Source of the DNA: a virus
Length of the DNA: 64,000 nucleotides
IMG/VR virus record: IMGVR_UViG_3300029319_000004
Coordinates: 116,712 to 180,711 of that record
Strand: one strand, 5' to 3'
Shown here: positions 46,644 through 63,577 of the stretch, in pieces
Position numbering within the stretch: position 1 is the first letter of the stretch
Layout: each line of letters opens with the position of its first letter
Position numbers and translations under genes: made by a program
The notes under the pieces: model-generated
What the model was told of the DNA's origin: nothing
The model's input: only the letters and a program-made list of their open reading frames with translations
Database searches by the model: none

Positions 46644-46805
46644 ATGTTTAAATTAGGTGAGCTTGTCTCCGCTAGGAGATATAACTCCGTTGGTGTTGTT
46701 GTTGATACAAAGGTGAGATTTGGTGCGCAATACTGTAAGGTTTTGTGGACTGGAGAAAAACAGGCACACTGGGTATCATCAGAACAGCTACGAGATAGGA
46801 ATTAA
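46644..46805 (+). CDS. Small SH3/KOW-like family protein (53 aa)
   Basis: Not in track. MFKLGELVSARRYNSVGVVVDTKVRFGAQYCKVLWTGEKQAHWVSSEQL. Confidence 0.7.
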   Translation: MFKLGELVSARRYNSVGVVVDTKVRFGAQYCKVLWTGEKQAHWVSSEQLRDRN

Positions 46806-46832
46806 ATTAATTTCATAGAAAAAGGAGGTCTT

Positions 46833-47162
46833 ATGAAGTTATTGCTAGCAGCACTAGTGCTGATGATGCTGCATGGTTGCAGCGAGGAAGACACTTATGT
46901 CGTCTCTACCGACGATGTGACTGTTGAGGAAGGTCAAGCAGATGTGCCAGACGATGTTTCTGCCACAGATGTTGTTGACCCCGTGGAAGATGTTACTACA
47001 TTTGATGTAGAGCAAGACACGGAGGTGGATGTCGAGGTAGATGTTGAGGAAGGTGTTGACGTCGAGGACGACGAAAATGTTGAGCAGTTGGACGAGGATC
47101 CAACCAGCTTCAGGAGCAATCCTGATCCAGGCTCTCAGTTTTTCAATCCTGAAGTCCCTTAA
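46833..47162 (+). CDS. Acidic lipoprotein
   Basis: Signal peptide II with lipobox LHGC; D/E/V/T-rich body; SD AGGAGG. Confidence 0.75.
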   Translation: MKLLLAALVLMMLHGCSEEDTYVVSTDDVTVEEGQADVPDDVSATDVVDPVEDVTTFDVEQDTEVDVEVDVEEGVDVEDDENVEQLDEDPTSFRSNPDPGSQFFNPEVP

Positions 47163-47188
47163 TCCACCGGGCGCTTTGCGCCCACTTT

Positions 47189-47276
47189 GGCCGAGTGGTG
47201 GAATTGGCATACACAACAGACTTAAAATCTGTCGCCCGTATTGGGCTTGCGGGTTCGAGTCCCGCCTCGGCTACCA
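47189..47276 (+). tRNA. trnL-TAA: tRNA-Leu (TAA)
   Basis: GGCCGAG/CTCGGCT acceptor stem, ACAGA-CTTAAAA-TCTGT anticodon arm, long variable arm, GGTTCGAGTCC, encoded CCA. Confidence 0.96.
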
Positions 47277-47282
47277 TTACAA

Positions 47283-47355
47283 TGCGCAGTAGCTCAGTTG
47301 GTAGAGCAGGTGGCTGTTAACCACCGGGTCGCAGGTTCGAGCCCTGCCTGCGCAG
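47283..47355 (+). tRNA. trnN-GTT: tRNA-Asn (GTT), no encoded CCA
   Basis: TGCGCAG/CTGCGCA; GGTGG-CTGTTAA-CCACC; GGTTCGAGCCC. Confidence 0.95.
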
Positions 47356-47365
47356 TATTATACAC

Positions 47366-47442
47366 GGGCTCTTAGCTCAGTTGGTTAGAGCCCCCCGCTC
47401 ATAACGGGGTAGTCCTCGGTTCGAGTCCGAGAGAGCCCACCA
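47366..47442 (+). tRNA. tRNA with CAT anticodon (likely Ile2/lysidine; elongator Met not excluded)
   Basis: GGGCTCT/AGAGCCC; CCCCG-CTCATAA-CGGGG; paired 1:72 so not initiator; encoded CCA. Confidence 0.92.
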
Positions 47443-47455
47443 AACAAGGAGAACT

Positions 47456-60611: not shown

Positions 60612-60870
60612 ACTCTTTGAAATCATGGAGGTTTCAAATGCTATAACTACTAACTTATTGATTTTATTATAAAAGCTCCCAGCAGCGACGATGGAGCCAA
60701 GGTATTGGACCCGCACTTTTTGCCTGTAAGTGTGCGGAATGTAAGAAAAAACCAAAACAGGATAGCACGGTCGCTCTGCTAGAAAACGACCCTTCGCTGC
60801 TTTTTTTATTTACTCTGCACGTTACGTGCCTATGTTGCTTGTGTACCCAACGACGACGACGGAGGACACA

Positions 60871-62151
60871 ATGTCCGACTTCAATCTTAACGACCATGTT
60901 TACCGACTTCTTCAGTCGGAGCCCTTCTTCGCTGCACTCTCGCGGCGCATCGAGAAAAAGATGAACAAGTCCATCCCGACCGCTGGTGTGCGCGTCAACG
61001 AGGATGGCTACTTTGAGATGGTCTACAATCCAGACTTCTTCGAGCCACTCACCGACAAGCAGCGCGCTGGTGTGCTGGTCCACGAGTTCTATCACCTCGT
61101 CTTCGAGCATGTCACTGGTCGTCTTCCCGATGAGCTAGCCGGTGTCATGCAGGGCAAGCCTTCGCCTGAGCAGGCGCAGAAGTTCAAGCTGTGGAACATC
61201 GCAGCAGATCTCTCTATCAACTATCATATCGGCGCAGACAATCTGCCTGAGAAGTGCTGCATCCCTGGCGGTCCTATGTTCGAGGACATGCCCGGTGACA
61301 AGACCGCTGAGTGGTATTACGACAAACTGATTCAGAAGGTCGAGGAGCAGCAACAGCAGAGTCAAGGCCAAGGCGAACCAGGCGAGGGTGACGGTCAGGG
61401 CGGAGGCTCAGGCACACCCGGTGACCAGCCATTCGATCCTGATGCAGCAGGCCAGTTCGACTCGCATGACGAGTGGGGCGAGGGTCAGGCCAATGAGATC
61501 GCCCAAGAGGCCCTGGACATCGCCAAGGAGCGACTCAAGGAGGCCGTGAAGGATGCTGCCTCGGAGTCATCCAGCAAGGGCTGGGGCTCCGTCTCTGCGT
61601 CCTGCCGCAAGGAGATCATGGAGCGTCTCACGTCCAAGGTTGACTGGCGCAAGGTGCTTCGCTACTTCGTCAAGACCTCGCAGCGTGCCAACAAGCGCAG
61701 CACGCCCAAGCGCCTGAACCGTCGCTACGCCTACGTCCACCCAGGTCGCAAGGTCAATCGCACTGCCAACATCGCAGTCAGCATCGACCAGTCTGGCTCT
61801 GTGTCTGACTCCATGCTCGCTGCCTTCTATGCTGAACTGAACAAACTGGCAGACCTTGCCACATTCACCGTCATTCCCTTCGACACCCGCGTCGCAGAGG
61901 ACAAGGTGTTCGTTTGGAAGAAGGGCCAGAGTCATCCTCAGAAGCGCTACATGTACGGCGGAACCTGCTTCAACGCTCCCACTGAGTACGTCAACAGCAA
62001 GGGCAACTTCGACGGTCACATCGTCCTGACGGACATGGAGGCCCCTAAGCCCAAGCCCAGCAAGTGCCAGAGGATGTGGATGACCACGAGCTATCACGCG
62101 CAGCGTCCCTACTTCGCAACCAGCGAGCGCATCATCGGCATTGATGAATGA
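60871..62151 (+). CDS. Metallopeptidase-like (HExxH) plus vWA domain protein (DUF2201-type partner of MoxR)
   Basis: PTAGV, YNPDF, VLVHEFYHLV, WNIAAD..IN, IDQSGS (MIDAS), FDT, GGT.F, VLTD. Confidence 0.92.
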   Translation: MSDFNLNDHVYRLLQSEPFFAALSRRIEKKMNKSIPTAGVRVNEDGYFEMVYNPDFFEPLTDKQRAGVLVHEFYHLVFEHVTGRLPDELAGVMQGKPSPEQAQKFKLWNIAADLSINYHIGADNLPEKCCIPGGPMFEDMPGDKTAEWYYDKLIQKVEEQQQQSQGQGEPGEGDGQGGGSGTPGDQPFDPDAAGQFDSHDEWGEGQANEIAQEALDIAKERLKEAVKDAASESSSKGWGSVSASCRKEIMERLTSKVDWRKVLRYFVKTSQRANKRSTPKRLNRRYAYVHPGRKVNRTANIAVSIDQSGSVSDSMLAAFYAELNKLADLATFTVIPFDTRVAEDKVFVWKKGQSHPQKRYMYGGTCFNAPTEYVNSKGNFDGHIVLTDMEAPKPKPSKCQRMWMTTSYHAQRPYFATSERIIGIDE

Positions 62152-62249
62152 TAGAGTGGGGCATGATTATCGTTAAGGCCATGGGCCTCTATGCCCTGAT
62201 GGGCCTCGTGACACTGATCACAATCAAATACATTTCAGATAAAGATTAA
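62148..62249 (+). CDS. Small membrane protein (33 aa)
   Basis: Not in track. ATGA overlap; hydrophobic. Confidence 0.45.
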   Translation: MIEWGMIIVKAMGLYALMGLVTLITIKYISDKD

Positions 62250-62341
62250 TCATTCCGGGTGCTTGTAAGTTTTTTACTCGCGCCTGTTTACCCGCACGTA
62301 TCCGTGCCTATGTTATAACTGTTCCAAGCAGAGGAGAGAAC

Positions 62342-62530
62342 ATGACCCGCAAAGATTTTCAGATGATTGCAGATGTTGTTAAGACTATCGAAGACCACCA
62401 CACCCGCCACACAGTCGCGATGAACTTCGCGGTCAAGCTGAAGGATGTGAATCCTCGCTTTGATGTCAGCCGATTCGTCGGTGCGTGCAACAGCTACGCG
62501 AAGCCGGATTCAGTTGAGGTGAAGTTCTAA
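62342..62530 (+). CDS. Conserved small early phage protein
   Basis: MTRKDFQMIA ... NPRFD..RF..AC; own promoter and SD. Confidence 0.8.
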   Translation: MTRKDFQMIADVVKTIEDHHTRHTVAMNFAVKLKDVNPRFDVSRFVGACNSYAKPDSVEVKF

Positions 62531-62661
62531 TGGGAAAGTTGCTCATGCTGCTCGCCGTCTTCACGGCGGGCTACCTCTGGGGCGACGTCGCCCTGGCACA
62601 CGCTATCGATCTCTGGCAAGATTTGTCCGAGACATCCCGAATCAAGCTGGAGAACCCATAA
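62530..62661 (+). CDS. Small membrane protein (43 aa)
   Basis: Not in track. TAATG overlaps at both ends; KLLMLLAVFTAGYLWG. Confidence 0.6.
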   Translation: MGKLLMLLAVFTAGYLWGDVALAHAIDLWQDLSETSRIKLENP

Positions 62662-62888
62662 TGGCAAGAGACATTCCAAGAGTTATGAAACACGCTGACG
62701 CAGTGCGTCACTTTGAAGAAGAGATGATGCCCGGTATCCGAGCCATCGAGGCCACACAATCTGGCAACCCTGACTGGCCTCGCCGCTGCGAGGCTTGGAA
62801 CAACTGGACCGATGCCTTGTGCAAAAACGAGCAGATCTCTGACTGGCAGTATGAGAACTGGTCGCACCCTCCAAGTTGTGGAGATTAA
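62661..62888 (+). CDS. Conserved small early phage protein
   Basis: EAWNNWTD.LCK..QISDWQY.NW..P. Confidence 0.75.
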   Translation: MARDIPRVMKHADAVRHFEEEMMPGIRAIEATQSGNPDWPRRCEAWNNWTDALCKNEQISDWQYENWSHPPSCGD

Positions 62889-63048
62889 AGGTGGAATCGA
62901 TTCTGCTCTATATCTTTGTCTGGCTGGTGCTAGCTCAGATGGTTGAGCAATAGTTTTTTGCTCGTGCGTGCATAGTTTTTTGCTCGCGCCCCTTTACACA
63001 CGTGAAACGGTGCTTATTGTATAGGTGTCGAAAAGACAAGGAGACGAC

Positions 63049-63348
63049 ATGCGTAAGAATCAGAAGATTTCAGTCCGAGGCGACCACAAGCGAGCAGCGC
63101 GAAACGAGGGCAAGCCCCGTATCGGTCAGGTGCGAATCCCAGCACGCAACATGCCTCACACAATGTTTCGTCGTGCATGGCTCGGTGATGGGACACAAGT
63201 TGCTATCGCTCGGTCCAACGATCGTTTTATCTGTGGGCATTTTGACGCTCACGAGCAGCCCCTCTGTAGGGCAACCGTCTTCGAGGGCGGCTCTGCTGAG
63301 TCTCGCGCCCTTCTCTGGCTTAAGCGCCAGAGGATGATTAATGGCTGA
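63049..63348 (+). CDS. Basic hypothetical protein
   Basis: Promoter at 62993 and SD GGAG. Confidence 0.65.
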   Translation: MRKNQKISVRGDHKRAARNEGKPRIGQVRIPARNMPHTMFRRAWLGDGTQVAIARSNDRFICGHFDAHEQPLCRATVFEGGSAESRALLWLKRQRMING

Positions 63349-63577
63349 TTGGCCACCCGACGTGGGCGACTTGGTGCGAGTGATCGCGCCCGGTCATGAC
63401 CCACCGGGTCCAGCGCTTGTTGTCGAGAAGGACAAGGGCGGATGGCTCAGGCTCAAATGGGCAGTCGGAGAGCCTGAAGGCTACGATGGATACGACAGAT
63501 GGTATCCACCGGCAAAAGTCATAATGATTTCAAGAGCTTGTGAGAAAGATGAACAATCTTTCAAAAAAAACACCTGA
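63341..63577 (+). CDS. SH3/KOW-like family protein
   Basis: PDVGDLVRV...ALVV...LRLKW....WY....V.MIS. Confidence 0.75.
   Translation: MADWPPDVGDLVRVIAPGHDPPGPALVVEKDKGGWLRLKWAVGEPEGYDGYDRWYPPAKVIMISRACEKDEQSFKKNT

What the first reader, a model, noticed from the sequence alone, without database searches (positions are those of the whole stretch)
46644..63577. About 17 highly diverged 50-90 aa SH3/KOW-like paralogs: a possible binder library
Seen: ORFs at 46644, 50543, 51349, 53679, 53866, 54038, 54463, 54638, 54789, 54934, 55414, 56121, 57795, 58179, 58348, 58490 and 63341 share K-V-G-D-L-V, G-x-V/I-V, an aromatic-x-V-x-W strand, a later W/Y and L-E-V/L-I, while the loops differ completely. 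Established: this pattern fits small SH3-type barrels (KOW/Tudor/YorP/YodC-like), which bind peptides or nucleic acids via variable loops. Inference: an expanded family on one scaffold in the early region could be a set of inhibitors or decoys for different host defence or takeover targets.
Basis: partly seen in the sequence, partly recalled or inferred. Interest (0 to 1): 0.75.

Follow-up and report, generated by a model that had tools for sequence, protein, structure and literature searches.

The report
Chained SH3-like mini-gene family in phage
A large uncultured marine phage carries about a dozen diverged copies of one tiny barrel-shaped (SH3-like) protein, most of them chained by a repeated 14-base overlap that ends one gene and starts the next; the family is real, widespread and uncatalogued, but what the proteins do is still unknown.

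Summary
The paralog family is real. Eight tandem genes (53866-55134 and 58179-58503) are clear copies at 31-41% identity. Four more are supported by profiles (46644, 51349, 53679, 58490). Three are marginal (50543, 57795, 63341) and two are not shown to be homologous (55414, 56121). A high-confidence model (pLDDT 92.5) is a five-stranded SH3-like barrel, closest to KOW, Tudor and chromo barrels. No Pfam or PHROG family covers it, although 1044 database clusters match. Related 180-280 kb phages carry 8-28 copies each.

Part of the shared motif is DNA-coded. The N-terminal MKVGD and the C-terminal ESR are two frames of one 14-nt junction, RTGAAAGTNGGTGA. The LEV codons just upstream carry the ribosome-binding site of the next gene. 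Unrelated genes (GIY-YIG, a zinc ribbon, DUF2061) sit between the same junctions. A related Tara phage has the orthologs in a different order.

Orthologs are 60-78% identical (one pair 39%), close to the 76% of the UvdE enzyme. This is therefore a maintained repertoire, not a hypervariable library. The binder or anti-defence function is plausible (mostly acidic stand-alone barrels, paralog-specific surfaces) but untested. This scan has reported the same kind of array on other phage genomes.

The parts
46644..46805 (+). Isolated family member (53 aa)
   Evidence: hmmsearch with A3 gives E 1.6e-5. hhalign with A2 gives 4e-4 over 45 columns.
50543..50809 (+). Probable diverged member (88 aa) with a C-terminal extension
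   Evidence: hhalign with A3 gives 3e-5, probability 73%, over 39 columns. Not found by hmmsearch.
51349..51567 (+). Isolated family member (72 aa)
   Evidence: hmmsearch with A3 gives 1.7e-4. hhalign with A2 gives 8e-4.
53679..53873 (+). Diverged member that opens array 1 (64 aa, very acidic)
   Evidence: hhalign with A3 gives 4e-6, probability 87%. It overlaps the next gene by 8 nt.
53866..54051 (+). Core member (61 aa)
   Evidence: Alignment A2. hmmsearch 8.8e-19. Ends ESR* in a 14-nt overlap.
54038..54229 (+). Core member (63 aa)
   Evidence: Its ortholog in L001 is 70% identical.
54216..54476 (+). GIY-YIG (URI-type) gene inserted as a cassette inside the array; not a family member
   Evidence: It starts at GTGAAA, where a family member would start, and ends INESR* over the next junction. 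Its ortholog, 64% identical, lies outside the array in L001. The GIY-YIG assignment comes from reading the sequence motif, not from a Pfam run.
54463..54651 (+). Core member (62 aa); the one that was modelled
   Evidence: AF2 pLDDT 92.5 with five strands. L001 ortholog 60% identical.
54638..54802 (+). Core member (54 aa)
   Evidence: L001 ortholog 78% identical.
54789..54947 (+). Core member (52 aa)
   Evidence: L001 ortholog 60% identical.
54934..55134 (+). Core member (66 aa)
   Evidence: L001 ortholog 39% identical.
55121..55417 (+). Unrelated 98-aa ORF joined by a 14-nt overlap of different sequence (ATGAGCAAGAATAA)
   Evidence: No Pfam hit.
55414..55596 (+). Doubtful member (60 aa): family-like N-terminus only
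   Evidence: hhalign aligns only residues 1-12. Language-model features fall near the same SH3-type clusters as the core member, which is only a weak lead.
56121..56381 (+). Doubtful member (86 aa): similar strand order, homology unproven
   Evidence: hhalign 0.005; profile-to-profile 2e-4 over 28 N-terminal columns. AF2 pLDDT 87 with five strands and a long hairpin. Foldseek TM at most 0.56.
57795..57998 (+). Marginal member (67 aa) that opens array 2
   Evidence: hmmsearch 7e-3. hhalign 5e-3, N-terminal only.
57998..58192 (+). Cys-rich (zinc-ribbon-like) 64-aa ORF ending QNESR* over the next junction; not a family member
   Evidence: The zinc-ribbon reading is by eye.
58179..58361 (+). Core member (60 aa)
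   Evidence: hmmsearch 3e-19.
58348..58503 (+). Core member (51 aa)
   Evidence: hmmsearch 8.7e-10.
58490..58693 (+). Family member (67 aa) that closes array 2
   Evidence: hmmsearch 1e-4. Junction variant GTGCAAGTCGGTGA.
63341..63577 (+). Marginal isolated member (78 aa)
   Evidence: hmmsearch 4e-3. hhalign 1.3e-4 over 52 columns.
54038..54051 (+). Junction RTGAAAGTNGGTGA. It holds the start codon and codons 2-5 (KVGD) of the downstream gene and, in the frame one base upstream of it, ESR plus the TGA stop of the upstream gene. Other copies start at 54463, 54638, 54789, 54934, 58179, 58348 and 58490.
   Evidence: There are 9 matches against 0.22 expected; the one at 55003 lies inside a gene and is probably chance. 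A purine-rich SD-like element (GGAG, GAGG) lies a few nt upstream of the start at the eight junctions, inside the L-E-V codons where the upstream gene is a family member (read). No stable RNA structure.

Best explanation
This is a lineage-specific, expanded family of stand-alone proteins of about 60 aa with an SH3-like (KOW/Tudor/chromo-type) barrel fold. It belongs to a clade of large DnaE-encoding environmental myoviruses.

Shown:
- The genes are real and conserved.
- They are chained head to tail by a 14-nt overlap that holds the downstream start codon and the upstream stop codon.
- An SD-like element lies just upstream of each start. Where the upstream gene is a family member it sits inside the codons of that gene's last strand.
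- Across related phages, whole genes are gained, lost, replaced and reordered, with the breaks at this junction.

Inferred:
- The chain is expressed as one translationally coupled unit.
- The ~30-nt junction repeat acts as a crossover point for homologous recombination.
- Each barrel is a small protein-binding module with its own target among host or phage proteins. The most likely role is host takeover or counter-defence: an accessory repertoire that is kept over time but differs between phages.

The confidence given (0.45) is for the whole statement including the inferred function; the shown parts alone I hold at about 0.9.
For: Family and fold. The model has pLDDT 92.5 and VIA Z 9.2 (rmsd 1.7 over 57 residues) to the Spt5 KOW domain.

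Uncatalogued and mostly stand-alone:
- No Pfam or PHROG family matches.
- 1044 clusters match at E<=1e-3; of the 150 best listed, all but 3 are 52-87 aa.
- No longer fused forms were found (weak evidence).

Expansion elsewhere:
- Five other 185-281 kb phages carry 8-28 copies each. Their DnaE is 65% or about 40% identical to this one.
- In these phages adjacent hits share the same overlap, 11 nt between hit coordinates plus the 3-nt stop, which I computed.

Junction.

Cassette behaviour:
- Unrelated bodies sit between the same junctions. In the window these are the GIY-YIG gene and the Cys-rich ORF. In L001 and L002 they are a DUF2061 gene that begins VKVGD and ends DESR, and a 94-aa ORF.
- Ortholog order is A, E, D, C, B in the window and A, B, C..., D, E in L001, all on the same strand.
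- The near-identical phages L001 and L002 differ by whole cassettes.

Purifying selection: orthologs are 60-78% identical against 76% for UvdE. In ortholog group A5, paralog-specific segments such as WYDGPE and R-DRLVR are invariant.

Protein binding rather than nucleic-acid binding: by my hand count from the sequences, net charge runs from -10 to +4, and 11 of the 15 members counted are acidic.
Against: - No target, interaction, expression timing or phenotype is known for any member.
- The SH3-like fold is generic and also serves RNA, DNA and cofactor binding. The best structural match is a KOW domain, which in NusG/Spt5 binds ribosomal or polymerase partners.
- Purifying selection on old paralogs fits any conserved function, not counter-defence in particular.
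- Translational coupling and recombination at the junction are inferred from sequence geometry and from comparison of genomes. Neither was observed directly.
- The host is unknown.
Confidence: 0.45

Rival explanations
1. KOW or Tudor mimics aimed at the host transcription-translation machinery. The barrels would compete with NusG-KOW, CarD, Mfd or PcrA-type Tudor domains for RNA polymerase, ribosomal protein S10 or Rho, and so re-programme host gene expression.
For: - The best structural neighbours include Spt5 KOW (Z 9.2), NusG KOW (Z 7.3), the PcrA/UvrD Tudor domain and Mfd.
- The PDB profile search gives weak Spt5, uL24 and NusG hits.
- PcrA_UvrD_tudor matches 2 of 142 homologs at E 0.0035.
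- The N-terminal G-D-hydrophobic motif followed by G-x-G resembles a KOW motif.
Against: - Pfam KOW itself never matches. Only KOW6_SPT5 does, in 1 of 17 members at E 0.013.
- The spacing between GD and GxG is longer than in KOW.
- All these matches are generic SH3-fold matches with similar scores to chromo, PsaE and R67 DHFR.
- It is hard to see why 8-28 very different copies would be needed for a few conserved targets.
Confidence: 0.15
2. Hetero-oligomer subunits. Because the genes are translationally chained, the paralogs would be made in fixed ratios and assemble into one mixed complex, as Sm/LSm barrels form hetero-rings.
For: The chained, overlapping gene arrangement suggests coupled and roughly equimolar synthesis. 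Small SH3-like barrels often oligomerise; R67 DHFR and HspQ are among the structural neighbours.
Against: - Copy number ranges from 8 to 28.
- Cassette content and order differ even between near-identical phages, which does not fit a fixed-stoichiometry complex.
- No Sm or Hfq structure appears in the top 50 structural matches.
- Unrelated genes share the chain.
Confidence: 0.07
3. Mostly a by-product of the junction. The junction repeat drives unequal crossing-over, so copies accumulate and shuffle, and most copies have little individual function.
For: - A ~30-nt repeat recurs every 140-190 bp.
- Whole cassettes are present or absent between close relatives.
- Some 'members' share only the junction-coded termini: 55414 and the DUF2061 cassette.
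Against: - Paralogs within the genome are only 31-41% identical, while orthologs are kept at 60-78%, like an enzyme gene.
- None of the family ORFs used here is interrupted by a stop.
- The family persists in phages whose DnaE is only about 40% identical.
Confidence: 0.13

Closest known systems
SH3-like small beta-barrel domains: KOW (Spt5/NusG), Tudor, chromo-barrel, PWWP
   Same: Same five-strand barrel, with a short helical turn before the last strand. The profile also picks up true chromodomain repeats and an SH3 design at weak E-values.
   Different: - No Pfam model of these families matches at its threshold.
- These are stand-alone proteins, not domains of larger ones.
- The first aromatic of the chromo/Tudor methyl-lysine cage is not conserved in strand 1 (read from alignment A3).
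- They are encoded in multi-copy chains.
PeSL (promoter-early stem-loop) cassettes that mediate modular shuffling in T4-type phages (Arbiol et al. 2010, PMC2839356; Comeau et al. 2014, PMC4122927)
   Same: Short conserved repeats flank small accessory ORFs in a variable region. Related phages differ by insertion, deletion, replacement and reordering of whole ORFs at those repeats.
   Different: - PeSLs are intergenic promoter-plus-terminator motifs, as those papers' titles and abstracts describe.
- The repeat here is inside coding sequence. It holds an RBS, a start and a stop in two frames, has no stable hairpin and shows no promoter signal above chance.
Segmental amplification of accessory counter-defence genes in T4 (tifA; Srikant et al. 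2022, PMC9391042)
   Same: Recombination that multiplies a small accessory gene in a phage, as that abstract describes.
   Different: Those amplifications arose during experimental evolution (abstract). The copies here are old, at 31-41% identity, and each has orthologs in other phages.
Other expanded SH3-like small-protein arrays noted in this scan (for example e1-5817671, e1-5856066, e1-5318884, e1-1956782)
   Same: Chains of SH3-like microgenes with an overlapping junction, with the gene order shuffled between relatives.
   Different: They lie on other phage genomes. I did not compare their sequences with this family.

Membership tests
SH3-like small beta-barrel fold (structural class) | Five antiparallel strands forming a closed small barrel, with a 3-10 or short helical turn between strands 4 and 5 | tested here: met
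   AF2 model of 54463-54648 has pLDDT 92.5, with strands at 6-9, 21-28, 34-40, 47-51 and 55-59. VIA Z is 9.2 (rmsd 1.7 over 57 residues) to Spt5 KOW and 8.0 to a Tudor domain. Foldseek TM is 0.65-0.73.
KOW motif (Pfam PF00467) | Significant match to the KOW profile (the G-x-x-V-x-V-x-x-G-x-x-K-G motif with its spacing) | tested here: not met
   PF00467 is not listed for any of the 17 window ORFs at E<=1, nor for the 142 homologs at E<=0.01. Only KOW6_SPT5 appears, in 1 of 17 at E 0.013.
Chromodomain (Pfam PF00385) | Match to the Chromo profile and a three-residue aromatic cage | tested here: not met
   1 of 142 homologs matches at 1.4e-5 and none of the window members do. The strand-1 cage aromatic is replaced by the G-D-L-V motif (read from alignment A3).
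R67-type dihydrofolate reductase (Pfam PF06442, DHFR_2) | Match to the DHFR_2 profile | tested here: not met
   The best hit in the whole genome has E 0.14, lies elsewhere and is below the cut-off. Only fold-level similarity exists (Z 7.6).
YccV/HspQ (Pfam PF08755) | Match above the gathering score | tested here: not met
   One member (46644) gives E 0.017 and 15.9 bits against a cut-off of 22.8.
PeSL modular-shuffling cassettes of T4-type phages | An intergenic composite of an early promoter and a stem-loop terminator flanking the mobile ORFs | tested here: not met
   The junction lies inside overlapping coding sequence. Fold z-scores range from -2.0 to +2.0 with no common hairpin. Promoter-like and terminator-like sites are not above shuffled controls.
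PeSL modular-shuffling cassettes of T4-type phages | Whole-ORF insertion, deletion, replacement or reordering between relatives, with break points at the repeat | tested here: met
   Comparison of the window with L001 and L002.
Integron gene cassettes | attC recombination sites and an integron integrase with attI | not tested
   I did not search for an integrase. The junction shows no attC-like imperfect palindrome in the folds.

The most novel reading that the evidence does not exclude
The junction-chained array is a phage gene-cassette platform. One ~30-nt repeat would supply the ribosome-binding site, the start codon, the upstream stop codon and the crossover site, so any ORF dropped between two repeats is expressed at once. 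The SH3-like barrels would be its standard cargo: a shuffled repertoire of target-specific binders against host defence or takeover targets, functionally comparable to an integron but driven by homologous recombination.
Probability: 0.25. Interest if true: 0.8.

Novelty: new variant of a known kind. Interest (0 to 1): 0.55.

Why it matters
- A protein family with over a thousand sequence clusters, present at 8-28 copies per genome in large marine and other environmental phages, has no entry in Pfam or PHROGs and no known function.
- If the copies are specific binders of host proteins, they would be a compact natural scaffold library and a route to new phage-host conflict mechanisms.
- Separately, the two-frame junction shows how a phage can combine translation signals and a recombination hot spot in one short repeat. 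This extends the modular-shuffling idea known from T4-type PeSL elements.

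Tried and rejected
- **Lost Python machine.** It was lost. All-against-all clustering, pI, dN/dS and synonymous-site analysis could not be run. Charges were counted by hand.
- **Core-only profile (A2).** On the genome it recovered only the eight core copies and one copy outside the window, so the claim for the outliers rests on the broader profile A3 and on hhalign.
- **The search for related loci with A2.** It failed because no conserved stretch was available.
- **Cultured phages.** No DNA match and no tblastn match for one core member. 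The DnaE of cultured phages is at most 31% identical, so there is no close cultured relative and no host assignment.
- **R67 DHFR idea.** Rejected.
- **Long multi-hit database proteins.** P0019 and P0025 are unrelated repeat proteins, and P0129 is a true chromodomain protein.
- **Fused forms.** None at E<=1e-6 (weak evidence).
50543 and 55414 have no second similar stretch in the genome.
- **Junction scan of bacterial and archaeal genomes.** It gave scattered single hits across unrelated taxa, roughly as chance and generic MKVGD starts would give, so it says nothing about the host. This also means that single-match IMG/VR loci need confirmation; the five I checked all carried arrays.
- **Programmed frameshift fusing the chain into a polyprotein.** I saw no canonical slippery site at the junction (by reading) and did not pursue it.
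- **RNA element at the junction.** No structure and no Rfam family.
- **Terminal position as evidence for early genes.** Rejected, because the 77-nt terminal repeat is an assembly overlap.

Full report
**Context**

The window is the last 64 kb of a 180,711-bp IMG/VR virus record. Its 'direct terminal repeat' is only 77 nt, which is what an assembler overlap looks like. The record is therefore probably a complete circular or permuted assembly, and its ends say nothing about early genes.

The phage encodes a tail sheath, a DnaE-type polymerase, a class II ribonucleotide reductase and a GroEL, plus four tRNAs. No cultured phage is close: DnaE is at most 31% identical and there is no DNA match. 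Relatives come from Tara Oceans and JGI metagenomes.

From 46 to 64 kb every credible gene lies on the + strand. Most are ORFans, apart from UvdE, a DUF5658 gene, a MoxR-type AAA gene and a DUF2201 gene. That Pfam assignment comes from the syntenic genes of related loci.

All 17 ORFs exist. Eight align over their full length at 31-41% identity: 53866, 54038, 54463, 54638, 54789, 54934, 58179 and 58348.

A profile made only from these eight found just themselves and one copy outside the window. To avoid circularity I searched 1.84 billion cluster representatives with it. This gave 1044 clusters at E<=1e-3. Of the 150 best listed, all but three are 52-87 aa. The sampled sequences mostly begin MKVGDLV and end LEVISESR. 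I built a 142-sequence alignment, A3, from these.

With A3, a six-frame search of the genome gives the following:
- the eight core copies at E 3e-9 to 8e-20
- 46644 at 1.6e-5
- 58490 at 1e-4
- 51349 at 1.7e-4
- 63341 at 4e-3
- 57795 at 7e-3
- a copy at genome 19631-19840 on the minus strand

hhalign with A3 adds 53679 (4e-6, probability 87%) and 50543 (3e-5 over 39 columns).

Two ORFs remain unproven:
- 55414 aligns only through residues 1-12.
- 56121 is not supported by sequence. Even with its own 24-sequence profile it aligns only over 28 N-terminal columns, at 2e-4 and probability 46%.

The tally is eight certain, four supported, three marginal and two unproven.

**Fold**

The AlphaFold2 model of 54463-54648, built with A3, has mean pLDDT 92.5. 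It has five strands and a short helix in the first loop. Structure matches are all SH3-like barrels:
- An exhaustive structural comparison gives Spt5 KOW at Z 9.2 (rmsd 1.7 over 57 residues), a Tudor domain at 8.0, PsaE and NdhS at 7.8, R67 DHFR at 7.6, the MRG15 chromo barrel at 7.5, a Mind bomb repeat at 7.5 and NusG KOW at 7.3.
- Foldseek agrees, with TM 0.65-0.73.
- A profile search of PDB sequences gives only weak hits, to an SH3 design (0.005), Spt5 KOW and chromodomains.

The model of 56121 (pLDDT 87) has the same strand order with a long second hairpin. Its fold matches are weak, with TM at most 0.56.

**Not catalogued**

Neither the 17 window ORFs nor the 142 homologs match any Pfam or PHROG family consistently. 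The hits are sporadic and sub-threshold: DUF1918, PcrA_UvrD_tudor, Chromo, PWWP, YccV.

The ESM Atlas neighbours are viral 'hypothetical protein' clusters without a Pfam family. R67 DHFR was tested and rejected.

**The junction and what it does to the 'motif'**

Reading the DNA shows that consecutive genes overlap by exactly 14 nt, RTGAAAGTNGGTGA. This occurs 9 times against 0.22 expected.
- In the downstream frame it reads Met-Lys-Val-Gly-Asp.
- In the frame one base upstream of it, it reads Glu-Ser-Arg-stop.

The conserved N-terminal KVGD and the conserved C-terminal ESR are thus one piece of DNA read twice.

A few nucleotides upstream of each of the eight junction starts lies a purine-rich SD-like element (GGAG or GAGG). 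Where the upstream gene is a family member, this element sits inside the Leu-Glu-Val codons of its last strand.

The junction RNA has no stable structure: z-scores run from -2.0 to +2.0 and there is no common hairpin. Rfam finds only the tRNAs. This geometry fits translational coupling along the chain, but that is an inference.

**Cassette behaviour**

Genes with unrelated bodies use the same boundaries.

In the window:
- A GIY-YIG gene (54216-54476) starts at GTGAAA, exactly where a member would start, and ends INESR* over the next junction.
- A Cys-rich ORF (57998-58192) ends QNESR*.
- A 98-aa ORF (55121) keeps the 14-nt overlap with a different sequence.

In the related Tara contig L001:
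- A DUF2061 membrane-protein gene begins VKVGD and ends DESR.
- A 94-aa ORF begins MKVED and ends NESR.

Five window members have clear orthologs in L001, at 70, 60, 78, 60 and 39% identity. Their order is A, GIY-YIG, E, D, C, B in the window. In L001 it is A, DUF2061, B, C, three other cassettes, D, E. All lie on the same strand.

The GIY-YIG ortholog (64% identical) sits outside the array in L001. L001 and L002 share identical genes yet differ by whole cassettes.

The same overlap recurs in five other phage genomes of 185-281 kb, which carry 8-28 family copies each. I computed this from adjacent hit coordinates: 11 nt of overlap plus the 3-nt stop. Two of these phages have a DnaE only about 40% identical to this one.

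The closest described analogue is modular shuffling at PeSL repeats in T4-type phages (PMC2839356, PMC4122927). PeSLs, however, are intergenic promoter-terminator motifs, which this junction is not.

**Function**

Nothing identifies a target. The following bears on the question:
1. The proteins are stand-alone, and no fused forms were found (weak evidence).
2. By my hand count, 11 of the 15 members counted are acidic, with net charge from -10 to +4. This speaks against a general nucleic-acid-binding role and for protein binding.
3. Paralogs are old (31-41% identity). Orthologs are kept at about the rate of the UvdE enzyme (60-78% against 76%), so each copy is under purifying selection.
4. Within one ortholog group, the first-loop helix and the strand 4-5 segment (WYDGPE) are invariant and paralog-specific, while the strand 2-3 and 3-4 loops vary.
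5. The repertoire differs between related phages, as accessory and counter-defence genes typically do.

From these I take 'a repertoire of small, target-specific protein binders used in host takeover or counter-defence' as the most likely function. It is an inference, with roughly 40-45% confidence.

The rivals are:
- KOW/Tudor mimics aimed at RNA polymerase or the ribosome
- subunits of a mixed oligomer
- largely junction-driven copies with little individual role

**Relation to earlier scan notes**

The scan has reported the same kind of chained SH3-like array, with the same PeSL comparison, on other phage genomes: e1-5817671, e1-5856066 and e1-5318884. I saw those notes after reaching the same reading. 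I did not compare their sequences with this family.

**Verdict**

This is a real, widespread and uncatalogued SH3-like mini-protein family, organised as a two-frame, junction-chained cassette array. The 'binder library against host defences' remains a reasonable but untested idea. 'Library' should be read as a maintained, shuffled repertoire rather than a fast-diversifying one.

Noticed in passing
window 54216-54476: A small GIY-YIG (URI-type) gene sits as a cassette inside the SH3-like array. Its ortholog in a related Tara phage (64% identical) lies outside the array, next to the DUF5658 gene, so this gene has moved between junction-bounded slots.
   Followed up: partly
G000:C1:19631-19840 (minus strand; L106:631-840): An extra family copy (69 aa, starts MNVGDLV) lies far from the arrays, just downstream of and convergent with a 220-aa ORF whose end it overlaps by 35 nt. 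By eye that ORF looks like a cell-wall amidase.
   Followed up: no
window 63924-64000 and genome 1-77: The 'direct terminal repeat' of the record is only 77 nt. That is typical of an assembler k-mer overlap, so it indicates a circular or permuted assembly rather than true virion ends.
   Followed up: partly
window 46833-47162 and 57042-57368: Two small ORFs have lipoprotein-like signal sequences. One has a very acidic Asp/Glu/Val-rich body and the other is rich in Cys, Trp and Tyr. Both are possible secreted or envelope-targeted accessory proteins.
   Followed up: no
L001:6179-6379 and L002:4596-4799: A DUF2061-type membrane-protein gene carries the family's junction-coded first residues (VKVGD) and last residues (ESR or ETR). 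It occurs once in L001 and twice in L002. It is a clear case of an unrelated body between family junctions.
   Followed up: partly
L001:4986-5414 (also L002:2139-2567): A 142-aa protein whose C-terminal ~70 residues look like a family barrel behind an unrelated ~70-residue N-terminal part (by eye; no Pfam hit). It is the only candidate fusion seen.
   Followed up: no
window 47189-47442 and 48511-48587: A cluster of four tRNA genes (Leu-TAA, Asn-GTT, Met-CAT, Arg-TCT) flanks the UvdE gene just upstream of the accessory region.
   Followed up: no
window 59503-62151: A MoxR-type AAA+ ATPase gene and a DUF2201/VWA gene follow the arrays. They keep this position in the related phages (L002, L003), so the synteny around the variable region is conserved.
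   Followed up: no
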